In this document: positions 473 through 62,700 of the stretch, one piece after another
How the letters are laid out: each line of letters starts with the position of its first letter
How positions within the stretch are numbered: position 1 is the first letter of the stretch
Origin: Thermoanaerobaculia bacterium
GTDB lineage: Bacteria > Acidobacteriota > Thermoanaerobaculia > Gp7-AA8
Length of the DNA stretch: 64,000 nucleotides
Assembly: GCA_038230535.1 (NCBI GenBank)
Contig: JBBRNB010000006.1
Location: 10,531 to 74,530, forward strand
Direction: 5' to 3'
Made by a program: the position numbers and the translations under genes
Notes under the pieces: model-generated
What the model was told of the DNA's origin: nothing
What the model saw: the letters and a program-made list of their open reading frames with translations, nothing else
Databases searched by the model: none

Positions 473-602
473 GCTGGACCTCCTAAAGTCACTCGAATTC
501 CGCTGGAAAGTAGGACCCCGGAAAACCGCCGGATCATAGCACAGGCATATCTCCACAACTTCTCTGTCGAGAGTGATTTCGCTCAGCGCGTCGGGACAAA
601 AG

Positions 603-1274
603 CTACCGGTACACTACGCAGCCGTTCGCTTCCAACTGTGCGGCCGTCGCCACCGGCATCGAGAAAGTCGTGATCCATCTCAGGTCGAGCTTTTCGAGCC
701 GGGGAAGATCCAGCAGGCTTGACGGCAGATCGGTAATAGGGTTACCGCGAAGGTCGAGTTGTCGAAGAGTCCGCAGCCGTCCGATCGATTCCGGAAGGGT
801 AATGAGATTGTTGTTCCTCAGATGCAGTTCCCGCAAGCTCGAGAGCGAGCCAATGCAGTCCGGCAGGGATCCGAGCTCGTTGTCCGAGGCGCGAAGCTCG
901 ATCAGGCCGGTCATCCTGCAGATCGCCGCAGGCAATGCTGTGAATTCGTTCTCGCTGAGGTTGAGATAGCGCAGCCGGGTCAGGTTTCCCAGGGAGTCGG
1001 GCAAGGTCGCGAGCTCGTTGTCGTGCAGGTAGAGAAAGTCGGTGAGGTTCACGAGGCCGCTGATCGTTTCAGGCACGGACGTCAGCTCGTTGTGTCCGAG
1101 GTCGAGCATGCGGAGCCGGGTAAGCGCTGTGAGCCTGGGAGAAACGACAGTCAGTCCGTTGTCTGCCAGTACCAATGTCTCGAGATCGTGCAGACCCCAG
1201 ACGTAATCAGGAACGGTGCCGAGTCGCTGCTTCCAGAGACTCAGATGCCTGATCGGTTCGTCCTGACCGCTCAC
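603..1274 (-). CDS. leucine-rich repeat (LRR) protein
   Basis: Repeated LxxLxLxxNxLxxLP units ([26 protein letters not shown] etc.). The GTG start overlaps the gatB stop (GTGA). Confidence 0.75.
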
Positions 1275-2685: not shown

Positions 2686-2790
2686 TGGGAGTAGGGAGTG
2701 GGGAGTGGGGAGTGGAGTGGGGGGTGGGGGGTGGTGGGGGAGGTTCTGTTATTTCCTTTACGACCCCCTACCCCCCACTCCCCACCCCCG
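2686..2790. repeat. G-tract/C-tract palindrome (GGGAGTAGGGAGTGGGGAGTGG...GGTGGGGG / CCCCTACCCCCCACTCCCCACCCCC) in the divergent gatB/GGDEF promoter region
   Basis: Read directly: a run of GGGAGT-type units is followed by its reverse complement. The same motif family recurs at about 22275-22330, 35165-35245, 52462-52500 and 60515-60610. Confidence 0.65.
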
Positions 2791-5129: not shown

Positions 5130-6440
5130 ATGAAGCGAATCGCAATCCTCATCCTGCTCATCACCTCATCCGCCTTCGCCCAGTCGCTCGATCAGATGAT
5201 CGACCGCGAGATTCCATCGCTTCTCACGACGTACAAGCAGCTTCATGCCGCTCCCGAGCTATCGATGCAGGAGAAGAACAGCTCGGCGCTCGTTGCCGCG
5301 CGGCTGCGCGAGCTTGGTTACGATGTGACCTATCCGGTTGGCCAGTACAGCGAGCCGGGCGCGACCTGCTACGGTGTCGTCGCCATCATGAAGAATGGCA
5401 ACGGTCCGGCCGTTCTGGTTCGCAGCGACATGGATGCGCTGCCGGTGCTGGAGCAGACCGGTTTGCCGTACGCGAGCAGCGTCCGCGCGAAGAGTCCGTC
5501 CGGAGACGACGTACCGGTGATGCACGCCTGCGGACACGACATCCACATGACCACGCTCCTCGGAACAGCGAAGATGCTGGCTCAACTCAAGTCTCAGTGG
5601 CACGGAACGGTGATACTGATCGGCCAGCCAGCCGAGGAAGTGGTCAAAGGGGCGGAGGGGATGATGCGCGACCGGCTGTACGAGCGATTCCCGAAGCCTG
5701 ACTTCGTCATCGCTCTCCACGACAACGCCAACCTCCCTGCGGGGCAGATCGGCTACACATCCGGCTACTTCATGGCCAGCGGAGACTCGGTCAACGTGAC
5801 GATCCGCGGCATGGGAGGTCACGGCGCAGCGCCGCAGGCGACGAAGGATCCGGTAGTGATGGCGGCGCAGTTCATTAATGCGCTGCAGACGATCGTGAGC
5901 CGCGAAGACTCGCCGCTGGACCCGGTGGTCGTCACGGTCGGCTCGATCCACGGCGGGACGAAGCGAAACATCATTCCCGACGAGGTTCAGCTCTTGATGA
6001 CCGTTCGAACGTACAAGCCCGAGGTGCGCAAACGCGTGCTGGCGTCAATCGAACGGATCGCGCGCGGCGTGGCGATGGCGGCGGGCGTACCGGAGGATCG
6101 TGCCCCGATCTTCGAGCTGGTGCCGGGTGAATCAGTCGAAGCGACGTACAACGATCCGGCGCTGACCGAGCGCCTGGCCGCGGCGTTGACGCGCGGGATG
6201 GGCGCCGCGAATGTGATCCGTATCGATCCGCTCATGGTCAGCGAAGACTTCGGCCGTTTCTCCCCCGACCACAAGATCCCCCTCACCATGCTCAACCTCG
6301 GCGCCGTCGACCCCGCAAAGATCGCCAGCGGCCAGCGCCTCCCCTCACTTCACTCGTCCGGCTTCGCGCCCCTTCCCGACCCGACGCTGCGTGGAGGGAT
6401 CAAGGCGATGACGCTGGCGGTGATGGAGTTGTTGCATTAG
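5130..6440 (+). CDS. secreted M20D-family amidohydrolase (hippurate hydrolase/aminoacylase-like)
   Basis: Signal peptide MKRIAILILLITSSAFA. MHACGHDIHMTTLLGTAKML metal-binding motif of the M20/M20D peptidase family. ATG at 5130. Confidence 0.85.
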   Translation: MKRIAILILLITSSAFAQSLDQMIDREIPSLLTTYKQLHAAPELSMQEKNSSALVAARLRELGYDVTYPVGQYSEPGATCYGVVAIMKNGNGPAVLVRSDMDALPVLEQTGLPYASSVRAKSPSGDDVPVMHACGHDIHMTTLLGTAKMLAQLKSQWHGTVILIGQPAEEVVKGAEGMMRDRLYERFPKPDFVIALHDNANLPAGQIGYTSGYFMASGDSVNVTIRGMGGHGAAPQATKDPVVMAAQFINALQTIVSREDSPLDPVVVTVGSIHGGTKRNIIPDEVQLLMTVRTYKPEVRKRVLASIERIARGVAMAAGVPEDRAPIFELVPGESVEATYNDPALTERLAAALTRGMGAANVIRIDPLMVSEDFGRFSPDHKIPLTMLNLGAVDPAKIASGQRLPSLHSSGFAPLPDPTLRGGIKAMTLAVMELLH

Positions 6441-6940
6441 GGCACGCCTTCGGCGTGCGTTTTCTGCGCTGCGCGCGTTGTCGGCGTTGCACGCGTTTTC
6501 TGCGCTGCGCGCGTTTTCTGCGCTACGCGCGTTGTCGGTTGTCGGTTGTCTGCGGCCTGCGGGCCGCGTTGGCGCGTACGCTCTCGATCCTGGACAAACT
6601 CGATCAGGCCTTGCAGAGGGGCGGCGACACGGCGAATCGAACTTCGGAGCCGCCTCCACGTATCGTCGTCGATGTACTCGAGCCGGTGGGCGGCGATCAT
6701 CTGCGCCTGAACCTCGTACAACGACCCGCGCGCATGGCTGAGAAACTGCCGCCATTCACCGGGAGACAACCGTCCTTGTCCTTCTGCGATGTTGCTGACC
6801 ACCGACACAACTGCCCGCCGAAGCTGCTGCGTCAAACCGAATCGCTCGTCTCGCGGAAAGGCCTTGGTTGTCTTGTAGATAGCTACCATCAGATCGAGAG
6901 AGCGCTTGAATGTATCGAGATCTTCAAATGACCTGGTCAT
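6437..6940 (-). CDS. four-helix-bundle protein ('23S rRNA intervening-sequence protein' family), with a C-terminal tail encoded by the flanking repeat arm
   Basis: MTRSFEDLDTFKRSLDLMVAIYKTTKAFPRDERFGLTQQLRRAVVSVVSNIAEGQGR... matches the PF05635/TIGR02436-type family. ATG at 6940. The last roughly 45 aa (QPTTRVAQKTRAAQKTRA...) are a translation of the GCGCGAAGCGCAGACAAC repeat. Confidence 0.8.
   Translation of the reverse strand: MTRSFEDLDTFKRSLDLMVAIYKTTKAFPRDERFGLTQQLRRAVVSVVSNIAEGQGRLSPGEWRQFLSHARGSLYEVQAQMIAAHRLEYIDDDTWRRLRSSIRRVAAPLQGLIEFVQDRERTRQRGPQAADNRQPTTRVAQKTRAAQKTRATPTTRAAQKTHAEGVP
6442..6470 (+). terminator. putative Rho-independent terminator of the amidohydrolase gene
   Basis: GCACGCC-TTCG-GCGTGC stem-loop followed by GTTTTCT. 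Confidence 0.5.
6458..6557. repeat. left arm of inverted tandem-repeat element (units like CGCGTTGTCGG / TTCTGCGCTGCGCG)
   Basis: Tandem copies that are the reverse complement of the 7028-7155 arm. The same family occurs at 8275-8345 and 49586-49945. Confidence 0.75.
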
Positions 6941-7027
6941 CGCGTTTTGCGGTGCTACGGAGAGGAACGAGAGCGATCGAAAACGCAAGAGGCGACCTGC
7001 CGGTCACTCGGTGGGAACCAAATCATA

Positions 7028-7155
7028 CCATCCCACCGCCACTGACAACGCGCGAAACCGCAGACAACGCGCGAAGCGCAGACAACGCGTGAAGCCGCAG
7101 ACAACGCGCAAAGCGCAGACAACGCGTGAAGCCGCAGACAACGCGCAAAGCGCAG
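7028..7155. repeat. right arm of inverted tandem-repeat element (CGCAGACAACGCG(C/T)GAAGC x about 6)
   Basis: Roughly 22-bp units in tandem, complementary to 6458-6557. Together the arms bracket the IVS-protein gene. Confidence 0.8.
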
Positions 7156-8259
7156 CTATCTCACCCCCTCCGCCATCCTCATCACCTCGGCTTCCATCTC
7201 GGGACCGAATTCTGTCTTGATTTCGTTGATCCAGCCGGAGAGGAGCTCGTTGAGGATCTTGCGGATGACAGTGGGGTAGTCGCTGGTGCCGGAGGCGATG
7301 ACGTTGTTGAGGAGCTGGTCGAAGTCGAGGCGGGCTTCGTTCACCAGGTTCATGCCGGAGAGGTGGGGCGTGGTGCCGGCCGGAAGGTGGAAGATCAGGC
7401 GGTCCATGAAGTCGTAGATGTGATCGCCGATGCGCTGAAAGACCAGACTGAAGATCGATTCGTACATCCGGTTGTAGCGCTCGACGACTTCTTCCAGCTC
7501 GTACTCCGTCTCGGCCGCCGCGCGCTGTTCATTGACCGCGCTGCTTTCCGTTTCCGCGACCAGATTCACGCTGAGCAGCGCCCAGAGCGTACGGCAGGTG
7601 ACGAAGTTCGAGAAATAGCTGCGCGAGCAGACTTCCTCGACCGTGCCGGGCTCGGTGAGGAGGCTCAGTACATGGCTCTCTTCGTCCGTCAGCTCCAGAG
7701 AATAGGTCCGTGTGCCGGCGTCGGATACCTGCTGCAGAATGCGGTCGGGCCGCGCCAGACCGCGAATGATCAGCGACCAGAACTCGATGCTCTGTACTCC
7801 GTCGAGGATGAGGCGTTCGGTGTTCAGGGGCAGGGAGATGATCTCCGGCGGAAACTCGCTCGTGAACTCCATGCTGTAACTGCCGGTGCGGTAGCTGACG
7901 GCGTTGAGCACGATCGTGCTCACCTGGCGCTCCACGGCGCGCAACAGCTCGTCAGGCTGCAGGTAGCCAAGCTCGCAGAGCAGTGCGCCGATGCGCCGGG
8001 CCACGACGATCCGGTCCATGGCGAGGTTGTATTGATGAAGCGACAACTCGCCGCTGCGGAGCAGAATCTCGCCAAGCCCCATGTCCGGATCGGAGCTCGA
8101 CGCGAAGATGATCTTCCCCTCGTTGAAGTAGATGACATCGTTCCGGCCGATCGCTTCCAGCGACACGATGCCGGTCTCACCACTCCGAAGCAGCGTCCGG
8201 AAGAGATCCGGAACAGTCGTCTCCGCAAGGGTTCCCTGGATACTCAGACCGTCGGACAT
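7156..8259 (-). CDS. DUF4388 (PatA-like N-terminal domain) protein
   Basis: N-terminus GTLAETTVPDLFRTLLRSGETGIVSLE is the DUF4388 signature. ATG at 8259. Lies 132 bp downstream of the 8392-9684 gene on the same strand. Confidence 0.7.
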   Translation of the reverse strand: MSDGLSIQGTLAETTVPDLFRTLLRSGETGIVSLEAIGRNDVIYFNEGKIIFASSSDPDMGLGEILLRSGELSLHQYNLAMDRIVVARRIGALLCELGYLQPDELLRAVERQVSTIVLNAVSYRTGSYSMEFTSEFPPEIISLPLNTERLILDGVQSIEFWSLIIRGLARPDRILQQVSDAGTRTYSLELTDEESHVLSLLTEPGTVEEVCSRSYFSNFVTCRTLWALLSVNLVAETESSAVNEQRAAAETEYELEEVVERYNRMYESIFSLVFQRIGDHIYDFMDRLIFHLPAGTTPHLSGMNLVNEARLDFDQLLNNVIASGTSDYPTVIRKILNELLSGWINEIKTEFGPEMEAEVMRMAEGVR

Positions 8260-8274
8260 GGCGCGATTATATTG

Positions 8275-8345
8275 CGCTGGCGTATTGCGCTTCGCGCGTT
8301 ATCGGTTGCCGGTTGGTTGCGCGGCTGGGCGCCGCGCGGGCGGTT
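8275..8345. repeat. solo arm of the GCGCTTCGCGCGTT...GGTTGCCGGTTG repeat family
   Basis: TGCGCTTCGCGCGTTATCGGTTGCCGGTTGGTTGCGCGG resembles the arms at 6458-6557 and 49590-49730. Confidence 0.5.
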
Positions 8346-8391
8346 GGACTTTACGGTGCAGCTTCCCGGCAAGAGCCGAAGTTTCGCCGTC

Positions 8392-9684
8392 CTACGGCGC
8401 CTTCGCCAGTAATTCGTCGAGTTTCTGGAGTTGGCCGGTCATCGAGTCCACCATCCACGATGGTGCCGTCCTGGCGATGTTCTCGCGCAATTTGTCCGCT
8501 TCGTCCTTCTGGCCGCTGCCGGCAAGTGCCTCGACGAGGGACGCCGTAACCCAGAAGGTCTCTTCCGGGTCATGTTTTCCGTCGTCAACTTTGATGCCGG
8601 AAGCGAGCATCGCCCGGGCGATGTCGATGACGCGGCGACGGATGCGCTCGGCCTGCACCACGTCCGCGTTCGCCTCCCGCGGATCGGCGGTATTGGCGGC
8701 GCGTACGTTGAGCATGAAGGCGAGATTGATCCCGTTGTAGTAGTCGTTCTTGACGTAGAAGCCTTTCTCGTAAGCCCAGATCGACTCCTCGAGGTCCGCG
8801 GCTTCGCCTCTCAGTTCGAACAGCCGCTTGTGAATCGCGCCCCAGAGGCCGAGCGTTTCGGGATCGGTGGTCGTGCGTGGGTGCAGCTCTTCGAGAATCT
8901 TGCGGGCCTCGAGGAGCGCCGTGACGGGATCCGGCTTCTTGCTTTTGTACGTCGCGAGCGCGAGTTGCTGCCGGAAGAATGCGTCGTTGGGACGCTTCTC
9001 GACCAGGCGTCTCAGAGAGCGCACGGCCGAGCTCCACTCCGAGTCCGCCTTTGCCTCGCGATACATGGTCATCAACTCGCTGATGCTGTCGTCCGGGACA
9101 GAGGCGGGGGTAGCGGCCGCCACAGCGAACGACTTGCCCGAGTCGGCCACCGCGGTAGCCTCGAGAACCGGCGCCACGCCCGCATTCCAGGCGCGCAGTC
9201 TCGGCAGGAACGTGTAGATGGGGCTGTCAATGTCGGGGTTCGCGAGTAATTTGTGGATCGCGTCCTTCAACTCCGCACGGACGGTCTCGGCATGCTCGGC
9301 ATCGATCCCTTTGCCGAGGTGCTCGTAAGGGCGGATCACGATATGCGAAAGGTCGAACGGAAACTTGAACTGCGATTCCGCCATGATGATGGTGGTGTGC
9401 GGGCGGAGCGCGTGGCGTACGCCGAGCTCATAGATCGCATTCGGATTGGCGGTGGAAATGTCGGCGACGACGATGTCGGCGGTGAGCAGCAACTCGTACA
9501 TCGGCACGTCGATCAGCCCGGAGTGCTTGATGTCGTCGGCCCGGATACATTCGAGTCCCGCCTCTTCGACCGCTTTCCTGATGATGATGCGATAGGTCTT
9601 ATCGAGATCGAGGGTGCGCCCGGTGGCGAGGTCCGTCTTCTCGCCGAACCCCATCACGACGAAGCATTTCTTTTTTTCATCCAT
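8392..9684 (-). CDS. hypothetical protein: N-terminal Rossmann-like domain resembling nucleoside 2-deoxyribosyltransferase/TIR-like folds, plus a C-terminal TPR-like helical region (tentatively DUF4071/ASK1-N-terminal-like)
   Basis: N-terminus KKKCFVVMGFG...ADIVVADISTANPNAIYELGVRHALRPHTTIIM parallels the D(S/T)G..FE.G.A.ALGKP core of nucleoside deoxyribosyltransferase-like domains. The C-terminal 250 aa are helical and repeat-like. The track ORF starts at a TTG at 9696; the first ATG is at 9684. Confidence 0.6.
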   Translation of the reverse strand: MDEKKKCFVVMGFGEKTDLATGRTLDLDKTYRIIIRKAVEEAGLECIRADDIKHSGLIDVPMYELLLTADIVVADISTANPNAIYELGVRHALRPHTTIIMAESQFKFPFDLSHIVIRPYEHLGKGIDAEHAETVRAELKDAIHKLLANPDIDSPIYTFLPRLRAWNAGVAPVLEATAVADSGKSFAVAAATPASVPDDSISELMTMYREAKADSEWSSAVRSLRRLVEKRPNDAFFRQQLALATYKSKKPDPVTALLEARKILEELHPRTTTDPETLGLWGAIHKRLFELRGEAADLEESIWAYEKGFYVKNDYYNGINLAFMLNVRAANTADPREANADVVQAERIRRRVIDIARAMLASGIKVDDGKHDPEETFWVTASLVEALAGSGQKDEADKLRENIARTAPSWMVDSMTGQLQKLDELLAKAP

Positions 9685-9795
9685 GTGATCCGGCAATGTA
9701 GCCTCAGGATGGAGTTAAGTCCAGCGACGGAGGTTGAGGAGAACGCTTCATTGATGACTGGCAAAAATTGCCGAACTGCGTTGTCAGCGGCAGAG

Positions 9796-10068
9796 GCGAT
9801 GCCTAAATGCTAGGGATCGATGCCTATTAACTAGGGATCGATGCCTAAGGATTAGGAATCGATGCCTATGAATTAGGGCTTGATGCCTGAAAGTTAGGAA
9901 TCGATGCCTAGTACTTAGAGATCGATGCCTAGGAGATAGGGATCGATGGCTAAAAGTCAGGGATCGATGCCTGTTAGATAGGAGTTGATCCCTAAAAGTT
10001 AGGGGTCGATGCCTAAGAGATAGACATCGATCTAGAAATCATGGATCGATCCCGGATCGATATTTGAG
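9796..10068. repeat. AT-rich tandem array, about 12 copies of a 21-bp period (16-bp core TAGGGATCGATGCCTA plus a roughly 5-nt variable spacer); iteron-like
   Basis: Read directly: TAGGGATCGATGCCTAttaac TAGGGATCGATGCCTAaggat TAGGAATCGATGCCTAtgaat ... The last copy is the perfect palindrome GGATCGATCC. Every unit contains GATC. Local GC is far below the window average. Lies 110-380 bp upstream of the start of the 8392-9684 gene. Confidence 0.85.
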
Positions 10069-10124
10069 ACTCACAGACGTGCGGCATCTCCTTCAGCCGT
10101 CTTGACCGGAGCGGTGGCCGCGTC

Positions 10125-10640
10125 GTGCCGCTCCGGCAGAACGCCGGCGATGATGGCGCGTTCATTTATGTTCCGAAGGCGCTGGATGCCAGCGTCGACA
10201 TGGAGCTGCGCGTGCGCGATCTTTCACGCGACAACAAAGGGCTCGGCAGCGAGGTCCCGATCGTGCCTGCGACGGCCTTCAGTAACCCCGTCCGGCTCAT
10301 CGACATCCCGAACGATCCGCGCTTCCGAGTCTCTCTCCGCGTCTACGGCGCTACGAGTACGAGTCCGGTCCCCATTCACTATCGAGTGCTGTCTGGCGGC
10401 TCAAACTCCATCGTGGCAGCAGGGGATGCGGCGCTGTCGATCTACCCGTTCGTCGGAGACCTGCCGGTGAATCCTTCGTATGCCCAGCTCGACCCGATGA
10501 GCAACGCGGTCCGGGCCTCGAGCGAGACCAGTCTCCGGATCGAAGTATCGACGCCAGGGTCGCAAACGCCACTCTGGGCGATGGCGTCGATCACGAACAG
10601 CGATACGCAACAGGTAACGATCATCTCGCCGCGACGGTAG
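10125..10640 (+). CDS. hypothetical protein (no recognisable domain)
   Basis: 171-aa ORF with host-like codon usage, beginning right after the AT-rich array. No signal peptide and no motif recognised. Confidence 0.4.
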   Translation: MPLRQNAGDDGAFIYVPKALDASVDMELRVRDLSRDNKGLGSEVPIVPATAFSNPVRLIDIPNDPRFRVSLRVYGATSTSPVPIHYRVLSGGSNSIVAAGDAALSIYPFVGDLPVNPSYAQLDPMSNAVRASSETSLRIEVSTPGSQTPLWAMASITNSDTQQVTIISPRR

Positions 10641-10723
10641 CCGAGAGACATCGATGATGGACAACCCTTGGAGACCGCCCTTCGAGGATCGACCTGTGCC
10701 AGAATCACACCCCGGAGGATGCC

Positions 10724-10921
10724 ATGGGCCAGGACGAAGAAGAAGACAAGACGATCTATAAGGCCGTGCTCAACCACGAGGAGCAGTACTCAATCTGGCC
10801 GGCGGATCGTGAGAATCCGCTCGGATGGACCGACGCCGGGAAGAGCGGTACCAAGGCCGAGGTCCTCGACTACATCAAGGAAGTGTGGACTGATATGCGT
10901 CCTCTGAGCGTTCGGAAATAG
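10724..10921 (+). CDS. MbtH-like protein
   Basis: [19 protein letters not shown]...[13 protein letters not shown] is the MbtH family signature. GGAGGA RBS before the ATG at 10724. Confidence 0.9.
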
Positions 10922-10924
10922 ATG

Positions 10925-11050
10925 AATGAGATGGGGTAGGCAGAAAGCAGAAAGCAGAAAGCAGAAAGCAGAAATGCTGCGCTACGCCCCACGTTTCGGC
11001 GTAGCGCAGCATTTCTGCCTTCTGCTTTCTGCCTTCTGCTTTCTGCTTTC
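10925..11050. repeat. hairpin element with (GCAGAAA)n / (TTTCTGC)n arms; convergent terminator between the MbtH gene and the 11051-11941 gene
   Basis: GCAGAAAGCAGAAAGCAGAAAGCAGAAAGCAGAAATGCTGCGCTACGCC-loop-GGCGTAGCGCAGCATTTCTGCCTTCTGCTTTCTGC... Confidence 0.8.
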
Positions 11051-11941
11051 TCAACCCCTCTCTAACTCCGCCCGATCCCAACCACCCGCGGCGGCGGCGG
11101 CGGCGTAGGTAGACTGGCAGAAGCGGAGGAGGGCATCCTCCGGGTCGGACGACATGCGGACGGCCTCATACGGGAGGACGTACTCGGAGAAGGCGTCGCT
11201 GTAGAAAGCTTCCGCCGGTTCGACGCGGGCGTCCTTGAAGCCGGCCGGCTGCGGGGCGGCGTAGGCGTAGAACGCCGGCGCGGGGAAGGCGCCGCCGCCG
11301 GGCCACCATCCGCAACTGCTGACCTCGTGTGAGTAAGCTTCGCGCGTGATCGGATCGGCGTTCGGATTGTCCGGGGCGCGGCGGCCGGAGAAGCGGGTGA
11401 CGGCCATGTCGAAGCTGCCCCAGAAGAAGTGTACGGGGCTGCTCTTGCCGATGAACGACGCGCGGAACTGGTTCAACAGGCGGTCGGTGAAAATCAGGAT
11501 GCGCCGGAAGCGTTCGACGGCGTCTCGGTCGTATGATGTGTGCTCATGGTCTTCGGCGAACGGAATCGGGTTGTCGATCTCGACCGGGACCGGCCAGATC
11601 TTGACGTCGATGCCGCACTCATGGAGACGCGCCATCGTCTCGGCGTAGAAATCGGCGACGGAGCGAGGGACGAGCGGCACCCGTCCGTGGCGGCCGTCGC
11701 TGCAGCGGATGACGAGTTGGTGATCGATGAAGTCGAATTCGCAGTCGAAGACGCGGCCGCGATACGGGATCGCCGATGTGGTCAGGCCCCTCGCGCTGAC
11801 GTAGAGCGCAGTGTCCCACCAGTGGTTCACCCGAGGAGCGAGAGCGAGGCGGACCTTGCCGGCGATCTGCGTCCACATGTGCAGAGTGTCGCAGGTCGGC
11901 TTCCAATCTGGCAGCGGCAGGGGATCAAGATCGTTGATCAT
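11051..11941 (-). CDS. conserved hypothetical protein (possibly DUF5996-like; family assignment uncertain)
   Basis: 296-aa ORF with ATG at 11941 (MINDLDPLPLPDWKPTCDTLHMWTQIAGKVRL...). No catalytic motif recognised. Confidence 0.65.
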   Translation of the reverse strand: MINDLDPLPLPDWKPTCDTLHMWTQIAGKVRLALAPRVNHWWDTALYVSARGLTTSAIPYRGRVFDCEFDFIDHQLVIRCSDGRHGRVPLVPRSVADFYAETMARLHECGIDVKIWPVPVEIDNPIPFAEDHEHTSYDRDAVERFRRILIFTDRLLNQFRASFIGKSSPVHFFWGSFDMAVTRFSGRRAPDNPNADPITREAYSHEVSSCGWWPGGGAFPAPAFYAYAAPQPAGFKDARVEPAEAFYSDAFSEYVLPYEAVRMSSDPEDALLRFCQSTYAAAAAAGGWDRAELERG

Positions 11942-12013
11942 GGGAAAGATTATGAACCTGGCAGAGCGATTGCGATGATAGGAGACAGCAGTGAACGGCC
12001 CAAAGGAGGCAAC

Positions 12014-13045
12014 ATGAACAGCACAAAGAGGTTAGCAGCGCAGATGGCCGGAGTGGTTGCGATTGCGACTCTCTTCGGAACGTCCGCTTTTGCGGACAGT
12101 CGTCACTCAGATGCGACGGAGCGCGATCGTTCCCACCATTCCGACAGGGGCGACAGCCGCGACAACGGCAGACATTCGAATGACCGGCGCGACAACAACA
12201 GCAATCAGTCGCAGACCTTTGAACGGCGCGATTTCCGGGGAAGTGCGCCGCAGACGTTCGAACGGCGCGATGTCCGGGGAAGTGCGCCGCAGACGTTCGA
12301 ACGGCGCGATTTCCGGGGAAGTGCGCCGCAGACCTTTGAACAGCGCGATATCCAGAGAAGCGCGACGCAGACGTTCGAGCGGCGCGATGTCCGCGATAAC
12401 GGGACGCGGTCGTTTGACCGCCGCGAACCCGCCAACAACTTCCGGAATGAGAGCCGCTCGCAGGCCGGGAACTTCCGCGGCAACGAGCGCTGGCAGGGTT
12501 CCCGGGATGACAACCGTTGGCAGGGTTCCCGGAATGACCGCCGGGAGGGCTCTCGAAATGAGCGTCCGTCGTTCGACGATCGTGGCCGCCGCAGCTCGTT
12601 CGTCGAGGGACGGGTCAAGCGCTTCGAACACGAACGGGGTGGTTTCCGCGTGTGGGTCGACGGCGGCCGTTTCCCGGTCTGGATTCCTGAAGCGCGCATC
12701 AATCTCTTCCCCCACCTGCGCGTCGGCGTGTCGCTCCGCTTTGGCGGCTACTACGATCCAGCCGGCTATCTCGATGCGTATGACTACTACGGCGGCCCGG
12801 CGTATGCCGGCGCGCCTGTCTACAGCTCCGGCTACCTGCGGGGAACCGTGGAGACTGTCGACTTTCGCCGCGGCACGCTGGTCATTCGCGATGAGACTTC
12901 CGGCGCCTTCGTAACGGCGGTCATCCGCGACCGCAGTCTGGAAACCCTGCGGCCCGGCGACTACGCCGAGATCGCCGGCGACTGGACCCGCAGCGGTCTC
13001 TTCGAAGGACTGCGTCTCGAAGATGTGCAAGGTGGGCGGTACTGA
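12014..13045 (+). CDS. secreted low-complexity protein with 5 tandem 13-aa repeats (QTFERRDFRGSAP) and a C-terminal globular domain
   Basis: AAAGGAGG RBS and ATG at 12014. Signal peptide MNSTKRLAAQMAGVVAIATLFGTSAFA. 39-bp nucleotide repeats at about 12200-12400. The upstream part of the track ORF is antisense to the neighbouring gene. Confidence 0.7.
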   Translation: MNSTKRLAAQMAGVVAIATLFGTSAFADSRHSDATERDRSHHSDRGDSRDNGRHSNDRRDNNSNQSQTFERRDFRGSAPQTFERRDVRGSAPQTFERRDFRGSAPQTFEQRDIQRSATQTFERRDVRDNGTRSFDRREPANNFRNESRSQAGNFRGNERWQGSRDDNRWQGSRNDRREGSRNERPSFDDRGRRSSFVEGRVKRFEHERGGFRVWVDGGRFPVWIPEARINLFPHLRVGVSLRFGGYYDPAGYLDAYDYYGGPAYAGAPVYSSGYLRGTVETVDFRRGTLVIRDETSGAFVTAVIRDRSLETLRPGDYAEIAGDWTRSGLFEGLRLEDVQGGRY

Positions 13046-14072: not shown

Positions 14073-14240
14073 TGTCAGTGGATCAGTAGGTCAGTGGATC
14101 AGTGGATCAGGAACATGCTGGTCGTTGGGTCCTGATCCTGATTCTCTGGTCAACTCATCAAGTCGTTGTTTCGATCAGAAACGAGAGGTCTTCTGATCCT
14201 GATCCACTGATCCACGAACCACCGATCCACTCACTGAATC
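14073..14240. repeat. hairpin element of the GATCAGTG / CACTGATC family
   Basis: GTCAGTGGATCAGTAGGTCAGTGGATCAGTGGATCAGG...loop...CTGATCCTGATCCACTGATCCACGAACCACCGATCCACTCACTG. Confidence 0.8.
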
Positions 14241-30394: not shown

Positions 30395-30590
30395 TAGTCG
30401 ATCAGTGGGCTGGTCGATCAGTAGATTGGTCGATCAGTAGATCAGAAACATGAAACCTGATCCTGATCCACTGATCCACCGCGGTCCCTGATCCACTGAT
30501 CTACTGATCCACTGATCCACTGATCCACTGATCCACTGATCCACTGATCCACCGCGGTCCCTGATCCACCGATCACTGATCCACAGCATC
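30395..30590. repeat. large hairpin element of the GATCAGTG / CACTGATC family
   Basis: GTCGATCAGTGGGCTGGTCGATCAGTAGATTGGTCGATCAGTAGATCAG...loop...(CCACTGATC)x6. Confidence 0.85.
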
Positions 30591-31451
30591 CACCGCCTTC
30601 AAGAACCCAATCATCAACTCATTCACTTTCCCTGGCGCATCGGTCTGGACGAAGTGACCAGCGTCGGGGACGTGCTCGAGACGGAGGTCGGGGACGTACT
30701 CGCTGAAATCGCGCAGAGTCTCCTTCGTGAAAAACGGATCGAGATCGCCCCAGATCATCAAGGTCGGGATGTCGATGCGGCGAATCAAGCCGCGCATCGG
30801 TTTGCGGTGCCTCATGGCGCGGTAGTAGTTGGCCATGCCGGTGAGCGCGCCGGGCTTCGCCCATGCCTCGACATACCTCTCGATCTCCTCGGAGGTGAAG
30901 CAGCCGAGTCGTGACATGGCACGGCGCAGGACGGCGTAGCGGAAACGGCGCAGGACGAATTCCGCCAGCCATGGCAGATGGAAAAGGAGCTGATACTTGG
31001 CCCGCCACTTCTGCCGCGCCGACCGCCGCAGCTCGCGCAGGTATGTCACCGGATGCGGCGAATTGAGGATGATGAGACGGCTGACCAGCTCAGGATAGAG
31101 CATCGCCGTCAGCCAGGCCACGGCGCCACCCCAGTCATGGCCTGCCAGCGCGCACGGTGCGTCGCCACTCTGCGCGATCACGCCCGCGATGTCTTTGGCA
31201 AGCTCAGTAAGGCGGTAGGCGTCAATTTCCTGAGGCCTGGATGAGTCGTTGTAGCCCCGCAGGTCGACTGCGATGACGTGAAAGCCCGCCGCGGCGAGCA
31301 CCGGAATCTGATTCCTCCACGAATACCAGAACTCCGGGAAACCATGCAGCAGCACGATGAGCGGACCGCTCCCCGCCTCGACATAGTGGATGGTCATGCC
31401 GCCGACCTCGCACGTACGGTCGGTGACACTCAGTTCCGAAACCAGCTGCAT
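30573..31451 (-). CDS. alpha/beta hydrolase (epoxide hydrolase-like)
   Basis: HGFPEFWYSWR, GHDWGG nucleophile elbow and a C-terminal DAGHFV catalytic His. ATG at 31451 (MQLVSELS). The 162-codon upstream ORF extension translates the 21-bp repeat as heptads and was not annotated as coding. Confidence 0.85.
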   Translation of the reverse strand: MQLVSELSVTDRTCEVGGMTIHYVEAGSGPLIVLLHGFPEFWYSWRNQIPVLAAAGFHVIAVDLRGYNDSSRPQEIDAYRLTELAKDIAGVIAQSGDAPCALAGHDWGGAVAWLTAMLYPELVSRLIILNSPHPVTYLRELRRSARQKWRAKYQLLFHLPWLAEFVLRRFRYAVLRRAMSRLGCFTSEEIERYVEAWAKPGALTGMANYYRAMRHRKPMRGLIRRIDIPTLMIWGDLDPFFTKETLRDFSEYVPDLRLEHVPDAGHFVQTDAPGKVNELMIGFLKAVDAVDQ

Positions 31452-31611: not shown

Positions 31612-31905
31612 AAACGCCTGGCGCACACTGTCAGCCGGTGGCGCGCACTGTGAGCCGGGTGGCGCGCACTGTGAGCTGGGCGGCGCGCACTGTGAGCCGG
31701 GTGGCGCGCACTGTGAGCCGGGTGGCGCGCACTGTGAGCCGGGTGGCGCGCACTGTGAGCCGGGTGGCGCACACTGTCGGCCGGGCGGCGCACACTGTGA
31801 GCCGGGTGGCGCGCACTGTGAGCCGGGTGGCGCACACTGTCGGCCGGGCGGCGCACACTGTGAGCCGGGTGGCGCACACTGTGAGCCGGGCGGCGCACAC
31901 TGTGA
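31612..31905. repeat. 21-bp tandem repeat x about 14 (GGCGCGCACTGTGAGCCGGGT and variants)
   Basis: Read directly. The period is exactly 21 bp and sits in frame with the downstream hydrolase ORF, giving PAHS(V/A)R(H/R) heptads on the minus strand. Confidence 0.9.
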
Positions 31906-41006: not shown

Positions 41007-41135
41007 TTCTGGGTCTCGTGGTTGCCGAGCTGCTCGCATAGGTTGCCAGGTTGCTGGGTTGCTCGGTACGCTGCGCGGAATGGTTACTTCCAAGAACGGG
41101 CAACCTGGCAACTCAGCAACCCAGCAACCAACCAA
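41000..41135. repeat. GTTGCTGGGTTG / CAACCCAGCAAC-family hairpin; the right arm overlaps the cinA start region
   Basis: GGTTGCCAGGTTGCTGGGTTGCTCGG...GGCAACCTGGCAACTCAGCAACCCAGCAACCAACC. Confidence 0.7.
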
Positions 41136-46439: not shown

Positions 46440-46590
46440 GTGTGAATCAGTGGGTCAGTGGATCAGTGGTCAGTGGTCAGTGGGTCAGTGGGTCAGTGGG
46501 TCAGTGGGTCAGTGGACGGACAGAAACAGCATTCTCCCGATCTACCGATCACGAATCGACTGATCCACTTGATTACTGCCTCATCGCAAC
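46440..46590. repeat. GTCAGTGG-family hairpin inserted between dxr and rseP
   Basis: (GGTCAGTGG)x8 ... GATCTACCGATCACGAATCGACTGATCCACTTGA. Confidence 0.8.
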
Positions 46591-60981: not shown

Positions 60982-62700
60982 ATGCGTCTCCGGATCATCG
61001 TGCCGCTTCTCATCGCGCTGCTCGGCTCTCCGCAGCTCGCGCGCGGTTTCAGCGGCCCGTGCTGCGATTTCTGCACCGATCAATACCAGCAGGAAGGACA
61101 GTTCCCTTACTTCGAGGTGATCCGCACACGCCGGTTGATCATCAACGGAGACATCGTTGGTGGTCAGGGGTGGAAGCGCGTCTTCGAGAGTTGCGAGCAG
61201 GCGGGGCGGGTCAACATCACCGCATCGACCGAGGTCACTGTTGTCGCACGCGCCTACCTCGAGATTGCTGAGCCGAGCACGCCGGGCGCCGGCATCGAGT
61301 ACCGTTGGCTGCTCGACGACGTGCCCGTCGGTCCGACGTTTCATTTTCTTGCTGGCCGGGCCGGGTTCCCGCAGGGGGATGACATCAACATCGTTCTCCC
61401 GCAAGTACCTGCCGGACAACATCGCGTGGCCATCGACGGGCGCGTGACCGGCGACGGCCGTATCAGTTTCCGGCTCCTCTTCATCACCGCGCAAGGGTTT
61501 CCATCCGCCGCGTTTCCGAGTGATTCGCTGATCGTCTCGAGCAGCAGGACGATTGGCAGCGATTGGACCGAAGTGAGTCCTTCGCTCGGCCTTTCTCTGC
61601 CGCAGTCAGCGCACCTCTACTTCCAGGGGTATGTCGAATTCGCAGGCGGCGAGACAGTCAATTTCCGTTACGTGGTCGATGGTATTCCTCTGACGCCCTT
61701 GCGCGTCGTCATCCCGCCTGGTGGTGGCCTCAGCCTCTGGGATCACCTCGGCGACCCCATCGCGGCCGGCGCGCACAGCGTCCGGCTGGAGGGGCGCGCG
61801 GACTCTCCGGCGGTGATGACGCTCGCGCAGGTCGAAGCCGCGACGGGACCGGCGACGATCCAGAACAAGCCGTTGCCAGTGTTCAATGCCGATGTGAACG
61901 GCTCGCTCGGTACGGATCATCAGCCGCTCAACTGCCTCATCCTCGCCGAGGGGGCTTCCGGAGGGACGGGTGGGTTGGGCGGGACGCCCGCGTGCGGTAA
62001 GTACGACCTGCTATTCGATGCCCAACTGCCGGCGGCACCGCTCACATCGTCGGGGAGCGCCTTCGATGATTACACCGCGTTTGGCGACGGCTTTGTCGAG
62101 ATCGAAAACCGGAGCGGCACGAACGGAGTGGTCACGCTGACCGTCGAAGCGATCTACGAGGATGCGAGGGCGGGCGCCTGCAACGCGCTCGTCGAAGCGG
62201 CAGATACGGCATGCGCGAATCCGAGTGCCTGTTCGACGGCCGACTTCACGCTCGTCGAGTTCGCTGTACCGCCCGGCCGCACGCAGAAGTTCTTCTATGT
62301 CGATCCGATTCACTGGGGCTCTTTGGCGCCGAATCGCATTCGTCTCTGGGCGCGCTCGCAGAACGGCTGCGGCTCGGCTCCTGTCGGCCTGACATTCGGC
62401 CGCAGCCGCCTGGGCATGCAGCTCGTTCCAGCCGGCAACGGATCCTGTTTCTCCGCGCACGCGACGGGGCGCGCCGCGGCACCAGCGGTATCGGTATCGG
62501 CAGCGGGCTCGAAGGTTCCGCTCCGACCCCATCAGCGTGACCGTGCCACCGATCGCGCCGCGACGGCGAAGTGCGGGGAATTGATGCTGTCGGTCGATCA
62601 GTGGATTGGTGGATCAGTGGATCAGTGGATCAGTGGATCAGTGGATCAGTTGATCAGTGGGGCAGTGGTCAATGGTCAGTGGGGTCAACGACCCAGTTGA
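60982..62700 (+). CDS. secreted Cys-containing hypothetical protein whose C-terminus is encoded by GATCAGTG repeats
   Basis: Signal peptide MRLRIIVPLLIALLGSPQLARG. ATG 4 bp after the dnaE stop. The last roughly 35 aa (SVDQWIGGSVDQWISGSVDQLISG...) translate the hairpin arm. Confidence 0.6.
   Translation: MRLRIIVPLLIALLGSPQLARGFSGPCCDFCTDQYQQEGQFPYFEVIRTRRLIINGDIVGGQGWKRVFESCEQAGRVNITASTEVTVVARAYLEIAEPSTPGAGIEYRWLLDDVPVGPTFHFLAGRAGFPQGDDINIVLPQVPAGQHRVAIDGRVTGDGRISFRLLFITAQGFPSAAFPSDSLIVSSSRTIGSDWTEVSPSLGLSLPQSAHLYFQGYVEFAGGETVNFRYVVDGIPLTPLRVVIPPGGGLSLWDHLGDPIAAGAHSVRLEGRADSPAVMTLAQVEAATGPATIQNKPLPVFNADVNGSLGTDHQPLNCLILAEGASGGTGGLGGTPACGKYDLLFDAQLPAAPLTSSGSAFDDYTAFGDGFVEIENRSGTNGVVTLTVEAIYEDARAGACNALVEAADTACANPSACSTADFTLVEFAVPPGRTQKFFYVDPIHWGSLAPNRIRLWARSQNGCGSAPVGLTFGRSRLGMQLVPAGNGSCFSAHATGRAAAPAVSVSAAGSKVPLRPHQRDRATDRAATAKCGELMLSVDQWIGGSVDQWISGSVDQLISGAVVNGQWGQRPS

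What the first reader, a model, noticed from the sequence alone, without database searches (positions are those of the whole stretch)
9796..10068. Low-GC tandem array with short repeats and short spacers: a CRISPR look-alike that is more likely an iteron or phased binding-site array
Direct reading gives about 12 units of a 16-bp conserved core (TAGG(G/A)ATCGATGCCTA) separated by roughly 5-nt variable segments. Each core contains ATCGAT and GATC. The terminal copy is the perfect palindrome GGATCGATCC.

Unit length and spacer length are far below CRISPR dimensions, and no cas genes are present.

The strict 21-bp period and palindromic core fit plasmid or phage iterons, or a phase-variation or methylation-sensitive switch.
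Basis: seen in the sequence. Interest (0 to 1): 0.65.

Follow-up and report, generated by a model that had tools for sequence, protein, structure and literature searches.

The report
Phased palindromic 21-bp intergenic repeat array
A real, non-coding array of about a dozen 21-bp units, each with a 16-bp near-palindrome, lies upstream of an immune-type gene in an acidobacterial chromosome crowded with intergenic repeats; it is neither a CRISPR nor a plasmid iteron, and its function is unproven.

Summary
Window 9790-10062 carries 10 full units, one partial unit and two to three decayed units, at a strict 21-bp period. Each unit is the core TAGGGATCGATGCCTA plus a 5-nt variable, AT-rich linker. 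GC is 45% against 62% for the window.

The array is non-coding. It lies between the promoter of a TIR-like/TPR-S gene and a 5'-truncated gene remnant, in ordinary housekeeping chromosome of a Thermoanaerobaculia (Acidobacteriota) MAG. No cas, rep, par, phage or methyltransferase genes are present, and there are no plasmid or phage matches.

Genus-level relatives lack the array at this site. It is not a conserved partner of the TPR-S gene: 1 of 13 close orthologous loci has a related array. Related 21-bp arrays with the same AGGGATCGAT core occur at other loci in two other contigs.

The window holds at least 20 other intergenic tandem arrays. They fall into a few recurring unit families, often as inverted pairs, and 21 bp is the clade's dominant long period.

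The core is conserved far better than the linker, and substitutions are not compensated. The constraint is therefore on sequence, not structure.

Best reading (about 0.4): a slippage-made array of phased recognition sites for a dimeric DNA-binding protein. Main rival (about 0.3): a functionless satellite.

The parts
9790..9810 (+). Partial first unit: only the right half-site (GATGCCTA) plus linker AATGC
   Evidence: In-register layout, (6 mismatches to the core consensus)
9811..10020 (+). Ten full 21-bp units: 16-bp near-palindromic core TAGGGATCGATGCCTA plus a 5-nt variable AT-rich linker
   Evidence: TRF. Per-column counts: core 14/160 mismatches, linker 20/50, Fisher p=1.4e-6; 20 of 34 substitutions fall in 5 adjacent multi-allelic columns
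10021..10041 (+). Decayed unit TAGACATCGATCTAGA + AATCA
   Evidence: 6 mismatches; ATCGAT retained, in phase
10042..10062 (+). Out-of-phase tail: perfect palindrome GGATCGATCC (10043-10052) and GGATCGAT (10054-10061)
9724..9789 (.). Non-conserved spacer between the conserved TPR-S promoter-proximal block and the array
   Evidence: blastn homology to all TPR-S relatives stops at about 9713-9724
9685..9723 (-). About 40-nt promoter-proximal or leader block conserved with TPR-S orthologues in unrelated contexts
   Evidence: alignments of L034, L016, L017 and L005 extend to window 9723-9724
8392..9684 (-). TIR-like / TPR-S (MAP3K_TRAF_bd) single-gene immune-type protein; the array lies 106-378 nt upstream of its ATG
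   Evidence: Pfam PF20308 E 3.6e-26 and PF13281; PADLOC TIR effector model E 4.4e-7 on residues 28-117
10125..10640 (+). 5'-truncated remnant of a secreted 258-280-aa protein family. It matches only residues from about 90 to the end of its homologues. The array occupies the place where the missing 5' part would be
   Evidence: tblastn of 10 homologues; no N-terminal remnant upstream

Best explanation
The feature is a non-coding, lineage-restricted minisatellite. A 16-bp near-palindrome (TAGGGATCGATGCCTA) is repeated at exactly 21 bp, which is two turns of B-DNA, with a free 5-nt AT-rich linker. It sits in a rearrangement scar between the promoter of a TIR-like/TPR-S immune-type gene and a 5'-truncated gene remnant. 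The surrounding chromosome has intergenic spacers generally filled with families of short tandem repeats, many of them dyad-symmetric, a landscape like REP/BIME or cyanobacterial STRR elements.

Shown: the anatomy; the non-coding status; the chromosomal context; absence from genus-level relatives at this site; related arrays elsewhere; sequence-level conservation of the core.

Inferred: the array was generated and is resized by replication slippage, like its neighbours. The core is retained because it is the recognition site of a dimeric sequence-specific DNA-binding host protein. Ten to eleven dimers would then sit on one face of the helix and coat about 230 bp just upstream of the TPR-S promoter. 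The effect would be on local transcription, topology or nucleoid structure rather than on replication or partition of a replicon.
For: Strict 21-bp phase with no indels despite 16% substitutions.

The core is much better conserved than the linker: 14/160 against 20/50 mismatches, Fisher p=1.4e-6. Left-hand units have perfect or near-perfect cores but unrelated linkers (TTAAC, AGGAT, TGAAT, GTACT). Linker columns are multi-allelic, so they record many independent hits. Other arrays show only biallelic variants that were propagated with their units.

Core identity does not fall with distance along the array (0.82-0.94 at all lags), while linker identity stays at 0.20-0.55.

Substitutions are one-sided and break pairing in both possible hairpin registers: 1 compensated pair (permutation p about 0.2) and 0. 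The constraint is therefore on sequence, not on structure.

The unit's dyad symmetry is significant (16/21, p=0.01) and unique among the clade's long-period arrays.

The same AGGGATCGAT(GCC) core at the same 21-bp period, but with different remaining bases, occurs in L002 (found through gene homology, not through the motif) and in the Thermoanaerobaculia MAG L006. The L002 and L006 units are 17/21 identical.

The architecture parallels F sopC, which has 12 direct repeats each carrying a 16-bp inverted repeat bound by SopB (PMC3177203 abstract). It also parallels TP228 parH, which has boxes separated by AT-rich spacers (PMC3130281 abstract).
Against: No candidate binding protein was found. No DNA-binding, par or rep gene lies near any of the three arrays, and they share no neighbouring gene except TPR-S in two of three.

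No isolated copies of the palindrome occur at other promoters in 64 kb. The single extra near-match falls on the codons of a conserved GKGIDAEH motif.

The array is absent at the orthologous place in four genus-level relatives. It is also absent beside 12 of 13 close TPR-S orthologues, so any function is dispensable and young.

The genome makes tandem arrays almost everywhere: at least 20 in 64 kb, in recurring families, with fast turnover at orthologous spacers. That makes a non-functional origin the natural default.

The L002 and L006 arrays are homogeneous throughout their units (92-93% matches), so they give no independent evidence that the core alone is constrained.

The core-versus-linker test treats units as independent although they share ancestry.
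Confidence: 0.4

Rival explanations
1. A functionless or selfish satellite: a slippage-generated minisatellite that expanded in unconstrained DNA left by a rearrangement, with no sequence-specific recognition. The better-kept core would reflect unit-level drive, because units with an intact palindrome form hairpins and are duplicated more often. Alternatively the unpaired linker, acting as a loop, would be hypermutable.
For: At least 20 intergenic arrays lie in 64 kb, in recurring unit families and as inverted adjacent pairs. The same GatB-GGDEF spacer holds different arrays in different genus-level relatives and none in L043. Arrays sit at synteny breakpoints: L042 has a 14.5-copy 21-bp array exactly where collinearity ends, and the target lies next to a truncated gene. 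There is no conservation at the locus. Over-dispersed variation among unit columns is common in these arrays. L006 shows G/C flips at the two asymmetric core positions, the signature of quasi-palindrome template switching. Template switching is reported to create and maintain hairpin stems without selection (PMC8794818, PMC7202029 abstracts).
Against: Neutral decay cannot give 16/16 cores next to completely different linkers. Template switching predicts restored complementarity, but the G.G asymmetry persists in most units and 10 of 12 core changes are uncompensated. There are no indels in 210 bp despite 34 substitutions. Gene-conversion tracts short enough to spare 5-nt linkers are implausible (inference).
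Confidence: 0.3
2. A structured-RNA element: the array is transcribed, for example as a leader of the remnant-mbtH transcript on the + strand or as an antisense RNA. It would act as a string of about 11 stem-loops of the form GAUGCCUA-N5-UAGGGAUC, with conserved stems and free loops.
For: Both strands fold far better than shuffles: z=-9.7 for the + strand and -7.8 for the - strand. The variable 5 nt coincide with the loop of the linker-centred hairpin. Of the one-sided changes at paired stem positions, 7 remain G.U pairs on the + strand, and 2 further changes at the G.G mismatch position create a pair. Many other arrays in the window contain mini-hairpins or form inverted pairs between convergent genes, a terminator-like position.
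Against: The strong fold is an automatic consequence of tandem palindromes. No compensatory change occurs in the linker-centred register and only one in the core-centred register (p about 0.2). Every stem carries a G.G mismatch. No Rfam family reaches threshold, and only eukaryotic miRNA-hairpin models score weakly. No promoter-like or terminator-like site flanks the array. The position, in a divergent spacer upstream of a pseudogene, is unlike that of the terminator-like arrays.
Confidence: 0.08
3. A methylation-sensitive or copy-number-based phase-variation switch for the adjacent TIR-like/TPR-S gene. Clustered GATC/ATCGAT sites would compete with a regulator as in pap or agn43, or changes in unit number would retune the promoter.
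For: Ten ATCGAT and ten GATC sites lie in 280 bp, about 36 per kb each, against 0.8 and 10.5 per kb in the window. The array lies 106-378 nt upstream of the ATG of an immune-type gene, a class for which stochastic expression would be plausible. Tandem arrays are inherently length-variable (general knowledge).
Against: GATC is intact in only 6 of 10 cores and ATCGAT in 7 of 10. No methyltransferase is in the window. The only second assembly has the identical copy number. The array lies upstream of the conserved promoter-proximal block rather than within it. 12 of 13 close orthologues of the gene have no such array.
Confidence: 0.07
4. A cis element physically linked to the TPR-S gene, part of the gene's mobile unit or a preferred insertion target. 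That would explain why two orthologues have AGGGATCGAT arrays right beside them.
For: L002 was found only through TPR-S homology (81% aa), yet it carries a 14.5-copy 21-bp array with the same 10-nt core 24 nt after the stop codon. L005 has another 21-bp array 11-18 nt after the gene, depending on which gene boundary is used. All three 21-bp arrays of at least 5 copies in 92 kb of TPR-S flanks lie within 800 nt of the gene, although only 19% of the flank DNA does (post hoc p about 0.007). The family is rare overall: one Thermoanaerobaculia hit among GTDB species representatives, and none in 84 kb from genus-level relatives.
Against: The arrays lie on opposite ends of the gene: 5' in the window and 3' in L002. 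They lie outside the block of nucleotide homology (8385-9723). 12 of 13 close loci lack an ATCGAT array. L006 has the family next to a DUF3500 gene with no TPR-S within 7.5 kb. No shared flanking sequence exists. If the family is simply abundant in a narrow lineage that includes both organisms, the coincidence is unremarkable.
Confidence: 0.07
5. Iterons or a centromere of an integrated plasmid or phage, or a degenerate mini-CRISPR.
For: The 21-bp direct-repeat period is in the iteron range. A 16-bp inverted repeat per unit and about 12 copies resemble F sopC (PMC3177203 abstract). The region has low GC.
Against: No rep, par, integrase, phage or cas gene occurs in 64 kb. blastn finds no match in the plasmid or phage collections. 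The pattern is absent from IMG/VR. Flanking genes are collinear with chromosomal contigs of relatives. Repeat and spacer sizes are far outside CRISPR dimensions.
Confidence: 0.03

Closest known systems
REP/BIME elements of enterobacteria and pseudomonads (repetitive extragenic palindromes in tandem clusters)
   Same: Extragenic location. A conserved imperfect palindrome separated by short variable linkers, arranged in tandem clusters of up to about a dozen. The chromosome's intergenic spacers, even inside conserved operons (uppS-cdsA-dxr-rseP here), are populated by a few recurring repeat families. Known BIMEs act as binding sites for host proteins such as gyrase and IHF, and as mRNA-end structures (own knowledge).
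   Different: All units here have the same orientation, whereas BIMEs alternate. The unit is shorter (16-bp core against about 35 bp). There is no GTAG-type tetranucleotide. No RAYT/Y1 transposase gene was seen in the window. Only one copy of this family lies in 64 kb. There is no sequence similarity.
F-plasmid sopC and other plasmid centromeres (R1 parC, TP228 parH, pBtoxis tubC)
   Same: About 12 direct repeats each carrying a 16-bp inverted repeat (sopC, PMC3177203). Phased iterons cooperatively coated by a dimeric protein (parC, PMC2241845; tubC, PMC6009700). Boxes separated by AT-rich spacers (parH, PMC3130281).
   Different: No adjacent parA/parB, parM/parR or tubZ/tubR genes. The context is chromosomal housekeeping DNA. 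The unit is 21 bp, against 43 bp (sopC) or 11 bp (parC). There is no similarity to any plasmid record.
Abundant intergenic short tandem repeats of some bacteria (cyanobacterial STRR heptamers; Beggiatoaceae TAACTGA repeats; Xanthomonas/Nostoc G-rich heptamers)
   Same: A genome-wide habit of placing short direct repeats in intergenic regions, with a few unit families recurring at many loci and proposed regulatory roles (PMC4679880, PMC4692102). The window's 7- and 8-mer arrays fit this directly.
   Different: The target has a 21-bp unit with an internal 16-bp dyad and a variable linker, not a 7-mer. Many of this genome's arrays come as inverted adjacent pairs, which is not the described pattern for TAACTGA repeats.
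MIRU/VNTR-type intergenic minisatellites (Mycobacterium)
   Same: Tandem repeats of tens of bp in intergenic spacers of chromosomal operons. They are lineage-specific and expected to vary in copy number (own knowledge).
   Different: MIRUs are 46-101 bp and often carry small ORFs in frame with their neighbours. Copy-number polymorphism could not be tested here.
CRISPR arrays
   Same: Conserved, partly palindromic repeats alternate with variable segments at a fixed period.
   Different: The repeat is 16 bp and the 'spacer' 5 nt, against at least 23 and at least 21. There are no cas genes and no leader. The linkers are related to one another: AAAGT occurs 3 times and nnAGA 3 times.

Membership tests
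CRISPR array | Direct repeats of about 23-55 bp separated by unique spacers of about 21-72 bp | tested here: not met
   16-bp core and 5-nt linker at period 21
CRISPR array | cas genes nearby (or elsewhere in the genome) | tested here: not met
   No Cas family among about 50 ORFs of the 64-kb window scanned against Pfam. The rest of the genome was not available
Plasmid/phage iterons | 17-22-bp direct repeats in or next to an origin | tested here: inconclusive
   The period of 21 bp fits. No origin signature was found: no DnaA-box cluster near the array and no GC-skew inflection
Plasmid/phage iterons | Adjacent gene for the cognate initiator (Rep) on a plasmid or phage replicon | tested here: not met
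   No rep or phage genes. The locus is collinear with chromosomal contigs of relatives. No match in the plasmid, phage or IMG/VR collections
Partition centromere (sopC/parC/parH/tubC type) | Array of repeated binding sites for a centromere-binding protein | tested here: inconclusive
   The architecture is compatible: about 11 units with a 16-bp dyad at two-turn spacing. Binding was not testable
Partition centromere (sopC/parC/parH/tubC type) | Located beside the partition operon (ParA/ParM/TubZ plus the centromere-binding protein) | tested here: not met
   The neighbours are a TIR-like/TPR-S gene, a gene remnant, MbtH, DUF5996 and PatA_N. No partition genes are in the window
REP/BIME | Imperfect palindromic unit in extragenic DNA | tested here: met
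   7 of 8 symmetric pairs in the core. Non-coding: the only open frame has GC3 of 0.33, against about 0.8 in genes
REP/BIME | Many dispersed copies per genome | tested here: inconclusive
   One array in 64 kb. Related arrays occur in two other genomes at unrelated loci. The whole genome was not available
REP/BIME | Alternating orientation of units in clusters; GTAG-type motif; associated RAYT transposase | tested here: not met
   All units share one polarity (G/G at positions 5 and 12). The base before TAGG varies. No Y1 transposase is in the window (and the Pfam calls)
VNTR/MIRU-type minisatellite | Intergenic tandem repeat generated by slippage | tested here: met
   Head-to-tail units in an intergenic location. 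A weak 42-bp super-period and recurring linkers show duplication history
VNTR/MIRU-type minisatellite | Copy number differs between strains | not testable with these tools
   Only one other assembly of the same organism was found, and it is identical. No read-level data were available
Dam/GATC-type epigenetic phase-variation switch | Methylation target sites overlapping regulator binding sites upstream of the controlled gene, plus the cognate methyltransferase | not testable with these tools
   GATC is present in 6 of 10 cores and ATCGAT in 7 of 10. No methyltransferase is in the window. No methylome data were available
Known RNA families (Rfam 15) | Covariance-model match at the gathering score | tested here: not met
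   No hit at gathering threshold in the window. Only sub-threshold eukaryotic miRNA-hairpin models match

The most novel reading that the evidence does not exclude
Thermoanaerobaculia may possess an undescribed class of chromosomal cis elements: intergenic arrays of about 11-15 units with a fixed 21-bp (two-turn) period but diverse unit sequences. These would be read by one or more unknown proteins that use a two-turn ruler. The ATCGAT-core family would be one specificity, which here (and in L002) flanks and controls or silences a TIR-like/TPR-S immune gene, for example as a nucleation site for a repressive filament or as a length-variable expression switch.
Probability: 0.12. Interest if true: 0.7.

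Novelty: new member of a known kind. Interest (0 to 1): 0.35.

Why it matters
As a single locus it matters little. It is not a new immune array, replicon origin or centromere, and nothing ties it to an essential function.

The value lies in the context it exposes. This is an uncultured acidobacterial lineage whose chromosome is saturated with intergenic tandem repeats: at least 20 in 64 kb, in a few recurring unit families, many as inverted pairs, with a marked preference for a 21-bp period. The full-text searches run here found no description of this for the group.

If the core is a protein recognition site, the array offers a ready-made, high-avidity bait for identifying a DNA-binding protein from an uncultured lineage. 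It would also be a case where repeat expansion builds a cooperative binding platform next to an immune-type gene. If it is not, the array is a clean example of how slippage and palindromes fill rearrangement scars, and a warning for automated CRISPR or iteron callers.

Tried and rejected
1. CRISPR: rejected on dimensions and the absence of cas genes.

2. Plasmid or phage iteron or centromere: rejected. blastn (distant mode) of 9780-10075 against plasmids and phages gave no match. The IMG/VR pattern scan gave 0 hits. The window has no rep, par or phage genes.

3. Coding repeat: rejected for the window. Five of six frames have stops, and the one open frame has GC3 of 0.33. Several hits from the genome-wide pattern scan in other phyla (Maricaulis L012, Microbacterium L010 and others) are coding heptad repeats that share the 10-mer by chance. 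They were set aside.

4. Conserved regulatory region of the TPR-S gene: rejected. Homology to all orthologues ends about 40 nt upstream of the ATG, and 12 of 13 close loci lack the array.

5. 'Empty-site' reconstruction: L041's 229-aa gene upstream of PatA_N is unrelated to the truncated remnant, so no clean pre-insertion allele was found.

6. Derivation of the unit from the TPR-S coding sequence: the 14-nt match AAGGGATCGATGCC at 9296-9311 covers the codons of a conserved GKGIDAEH motif, and similarity does not extend beyond the core. It is treated as coincidence.

7. Shared leader or terminal sequences among the three ATCGAT arrays: none.

8. Compensatory covariation in either hairpin register: none significant.

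9. Rfam: no family.

10. Sigma-70 promoter scan of 9500-10300: nothing.

11. tblastx of the relatives' flanks against the rest of the window, to find where synteny resumes, gave uninterpretable noise.

12. Literature searches for intergenic tandem repeats in Acidobacteria or Thermoanaerobaculia returned nothing.

13. The exact two-core pattern is absent from GTDB representative genomes, so the source species is not represented there.
Full report
OBSERVATION. Tandem Repeats Finder reports 9797-10031, period 21, 11.2 copies, 72% matches and no indels. In register it consists of four parts. There is a partial first unit at 9790 and ten full units at 9811-10020. There is a decayed unit at 10021. 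An out-of-phase tail follows, holding the perfect palindrome GGATCGATCC (10043-10052) and GGATCGAT. The unit is a 16-bp near-palindromic core, TAGGGATCGATGCCTA, with 7 of 8 symmetric pairs (positions 5 and 12 are G/G), followed by a 5-nt linker.

The core with up to 3 mismatches occurs 18 times in the window against 0.4 expected, and all but one occurrence is inside the array. GC is 0.45 against 0.62. ATCGAT is intact in 7 of the 10 full cores and GATC in 6 of 10, so 'each core contains both' is slightly overstated. A Logan assembly of SRR19962015 is identical over window 7126-10967.

IT IS NON-CODING AND CHROMOSOMAL. Five of six frames have stops, and the only frame open across the array has GC3 of 0.33, where real genes have about 0.8. 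Pfam scans of about 50 ORFs show an ordinary chromosome. The genes include GatB, a GGDEF protein, M20 peptidase, Fpg, an ECF sigma factor, ribosomal protein S1, PdxJ, an ABC-F protein, CinA, RseP-Dxr-CdsA-UppS, TruA and DnaE. There are no cas, rep, par, phage, transposase or methyltransferase genes.

Names attached to the nearest homologues place the window in Thermoanaerobaculia, Acidobacteriota. blastn finds nothing similar in 72,556 plasmids or 50,697 phages. A pattern scan of IMG/VR is empty, and Rfam has no match.

IMMEDIATE CONTEXT. The array fills most of a 441-nt divergent spacer. On the minus strand, 106 nt from the array, starts a 430-aa protein with a TPR-S sensor domain and MAP3K_TRAF_bd. 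Its N-terminus matches a PADLOC TIR effector model, so it is a single-gene immune-type protein of the kind catalogued in PMC7159879.

On the plus strand, 63 nt after the array, starts a 171-aa ORF. This ORF is a 5'-truncated remnant. Its homologues are 258-280-aa secreted proteins, and the window matches only their residues from about 90 to the end. No N-terminal remnant lies upstream. The array therefore lies at a truncation point, in a rearrangement scar.

COMPARATIVE EVIDENCE AT THE LOCUS. Four contigs whose GatB is 90-91% identical are collinear with the window from position 3 to about 6440 at 80-86% nucleotide identity. One of them (L041) stays collinear to 8338, through the 23S_rRNA_IVP and PatA_N genes. 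Beyond that point each relative has different content. None has the TPR-S gene, the array or the remnant.

Conversely, TPR-S orthologues (75-83% at nucleotide level) sit in unrelated neighbourhoods. Their homology to the window runs only from the stop codon to about 40 nt upstream of the ATG (window 8385-9723), which ends 67 nt short of the array. The array is thus neither part of the conserved gene-plus-promoter block nor conserved at this chromosomal position.

RELATED ARRAYS ELSEWHERE. L002 was fetched only because it encodes the second-closest TPR-S orthologue. It carries 14.5 copies of GCGAAGGGATCGATCTGTTCC starting 24 nt after the stop codon. This array has the same 21-bp period and the same 10-nt core, AGGGATCGAT.

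A scan of GTDB representative genomes for three such cores at 21-bp spacing gave ten loci. Several are coding heptad repeats in other phyla, inside long high-GC3 ORFs. One hit is a Thermoanaerobaculia MAG (L006) with 14 non-coding copies of AAGGGATCGATGCCATCGCGG next to a DUF3500 gene. The L002 and L006 units are 17/21 identical. The three arrays share no flanking sequence and no neighbouring gene other than TPR-S in two cases.

Among 13 close TPR-S loci other than the window, one has an ATCGAT-core array (L002). Two have other 21-bp arrays within 800 nt (L005, L016), and ten have none. All three 21-bp arrays lie in the 19% of flank DNA nearest the gene (post hoc p about 0.007). This remains an unexplained hint, not a demonstrated association.

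THE GENOMIC HABIT. The target is one of at least 20 intergenic tandem arrays in 64 kb. They fall into a few unit families that recur at different loci. The octamer TCAGTGGA/CTGATCCA occurs at six places. An 18-mer with a GCGC-GAA-GCGC mini-hairpin occurs at 7044 and 49759 (16/18 identical). GTTGTCG heptamers occur in the window and in relatives.

The arrays often come as adjacent inverted pairs: 2687/2763, 10940/11012, 14075/14199, 41039/41100 and 62596/62712, plus 6453/7044 around a 23S_rRNA_IVP gene. They even occupy spacers inside the conserved uppS-cdsA-dxr-rseP cluster.

At the orthologous GatB-GGDEF spacer, the window and L041 have one inverted heptamer pair, L042 a different one, L044 others and L043 none. 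Turnover is therefore fast.

In 256 kb of clade DNA gathered without any 21-spaced query, arrays of at least 4 copies have these periods: 7 (7 arrays), 8 (6), 18 (2), 19 (1), 21 (6) and 39 (1, coding). So 21 bp is the dominant long period, and the unit sequences are unrelated. Examples are the window's second 21-bp array at 31619-31905, upstream of an alpha/beta-hydrolase, and L042's 14.5-copy array at a synteny breakpoint. Published parallels for repeat-crowded intergenic regions exist in Beggiatoaceae, cyanobacteria and Xanthomonas (PMC4679880, PMC4692102). My searches found none for Acidobacteria.

WHAT IS SPECIAL ABOUT THIS ARRAY. The core is conserved and the linker is not: 14/160 against 20/50 mismatches, Fisher p=1.4e-6. 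Over-dispersed variation among unit columns is common in these arrays, because variants are copied along with units. The target differs in three respects:
- 20 of its 34 substitutions fall in five adjacent, multi-allelic columns.
- Its left-hand units combine perfect cores with unrelated linkers.
- Core identity is flat with distance along the array.

Its dyad symmetry (16/21, p=0.01) is not shared by the other 21-bp arrays. Both strands fold well (z=-9.7 and -7.8), but that is automatic for tandem palindromes. Substitutions are almost all one-sided and break pairing in both possible hairpin registers. One compensated pair is seen in the core-centred register (permutation p about 0.2) and none in the linker-centred register.

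So the constraint looks sequence-level. This weakens the RNA-hairpin reading. It also weakens the template-switch homogenisation reading, a mechanism described in PMC8794818 and PMC7202029 whose signature is visible in L006.

INTERPRETATION. The descriptive conclusion is well supported (about 0.85). The feature is a lineage-restricted, slippage-type minisatellite with a palindromic core. It is a member of a REP/BIME- or STRR-like repeat landscape and lies in a rearrangement scar upstream of an immune-type gene. It is not a CRISPR and not a plasmid or phage iteron or centromere.

The mechanistic commitment is an inference (about 0.4). The 16-bp dyads would be recognition sites for a dimeric DNA-binding host protein. 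Placed every two helical turns, they would let 10-11 dimers line one face of about 230 bp of DNA just upstream of the TPR-S promoter, affecting transcription, topology or nucleoid structure. The architecture parallels sopC, parC and parH centromeres (PMC3177203, PMC2241845, PMC3130281), but the defining partition and replication genes are absent, so membership is rejected.

The main rival (about 0.3) is a functionless satellite whose cores are kept by hairpin-dependent duplication or loop hypermutation. The minor rivals are a structured RNA, a methylation or length-based switch, and a TPR-S-linked cis element, each at or below 0.08. An integrated plasmid or phage origin or centromere is rated at 0.03.

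LIMITS. No second strain was available, so VNTR behaviour is untested. No methylome, transcriptome or binding data exist. Only 64 kb of the source genome and fragments of relatives could be examined. The collection scans for the family required three perfect cores, so diverged arrays would have been missed.

VERDICT. The array is a new member of a known kind, with an interest score of 0.35. The array itself is probably ordinary. The repeat-saturated genome and the clade's preference for a 21-bp period are the more noteworthy by-products.

Noticed in passing
window 6437-7155: A 23S rRNA-intervening-sequence (four-helix-bundle, PF05635, E 9e-32) gene at about 6560-6940(-) is bracketed by tandem arrays that are inverted copies of each other: 6453-6533 GCGCGCGTTTTCTGCGCT x4.5 and 7044-7155 GACAACGCGCGAAGCGCA x6.1, 16/18 identical when inverted. 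This stem-with-ORF-in-the-loop layout is reminiscent of rRNA intervening sequences. L041 has the orthologous gene with similar flanking repeats.
   Followed up: partly
window, whole (e.g. 2687-2789, 10940-11051, 14075-14231, 30397-30593, 41039-41129, 46447-46515, 62596-62815): At least 20 intergenic tandem arrays lie in 64 kb, in a few recurring unit families. The octamer TCAGTGGA/CTGATCCA occurs at six loci, along with GTTGTCG heptamers and GCGC-GAA-GCGC 18-mers. Many form adjacent inverted pairs with 18-114-nt gaps and so have long-hairpin potential. They occur between convergent, tandem and divergent genes alike, including inside the uppS-cdsA-dxr-rseP cluster.
   Followed up: partly
window 31619-31905: A second large 21-bp array (13.7 copies, 91% matches, unit GGCGCGCACTGTGAGCCGGGT) lies upstream of an alpha/beta-hydrolase gene. 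The hydrolase domain starts at residue 192 of the long ORF. The array is open in frame with the gene but is probably non-coding.
   Followed up: partly
clade loci: window, L002 7351-7655, L005 7305-7529, L016 2433-2567, L042 5459-5848: Period 21 is the dominant long period among tandem arrays in 256 kb of Thermoanaerobaculia-like DNA: 6 of the 10 arrays with period of at least 12. The unit sequences are unrelated, and homogeneous arrays have about 11-15 copies. The similar lengths of about 300 bp could partly be a short-read assembly ceiling.
   Followed up: partly
window 10125-10640: This ORF is a 5'-truncated remnant of a 258-280-aa secreted protein family with no Pfam domain. Only residues from about 90 to the end are present.
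   Followed up: yes
window 562-1271: A leucine-rich-repeat protein gene (603-1274, minus strand) is inserted between GatB and the Toluene_X/FadL-type porin gene. Four genus-level relatives have only a spacer of about 165-215 nt there.
   Followed up: partly
window 2687-2789 versus L041 8032-8105, L042 9851-9940, L044 9652-9955: The orthologous GatB-GGDEF divergent spacer carries inverted heptamer pairs whose unit sequence differs between genus-level relatives: GGGAGTG/ACCCCCC, AATGTTG/ACATTCA and GTTGTCA/CCGACAA. L043 has none. The paired-array architecture recurs while the sequence is replaced.
   Followed up: partly
window 9296-9311 (minus strand): The only near-match to the array core outside the array, AAGGGATCGATGCCGA, lies inside the adjacent TPR-S coding sequence, on the codons of a conserved GKGIDAEH motif. 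It matches the L006 array unit at 14 of 14 positions. It is probably a codon-level coincidence, but it remains unexplained.
   Followed up: partly
L006 185-481: Units of this array show all four G/C combinations at the two asymmetric core positions (CC, GG, CG, GC). This pattern is expected from quasi-palindrome template switching.
   Followed up: no
window 12000-13045: A probable secreted protein has 13-residue tandem repeats (SAPQTFERRDFRG-like; 39-bp DNA array at 12210-12426) and no Pfam match.
   Followed up: no
L002 3061-7326 and L046 1893-6284: In two relatives the TPR-S gene is adjacent to a large TIR-WD40 protein gene, in different relative orientations. This suggests a recurrent immune-gene neighbourhood that the window lacks.
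   Followed up: no
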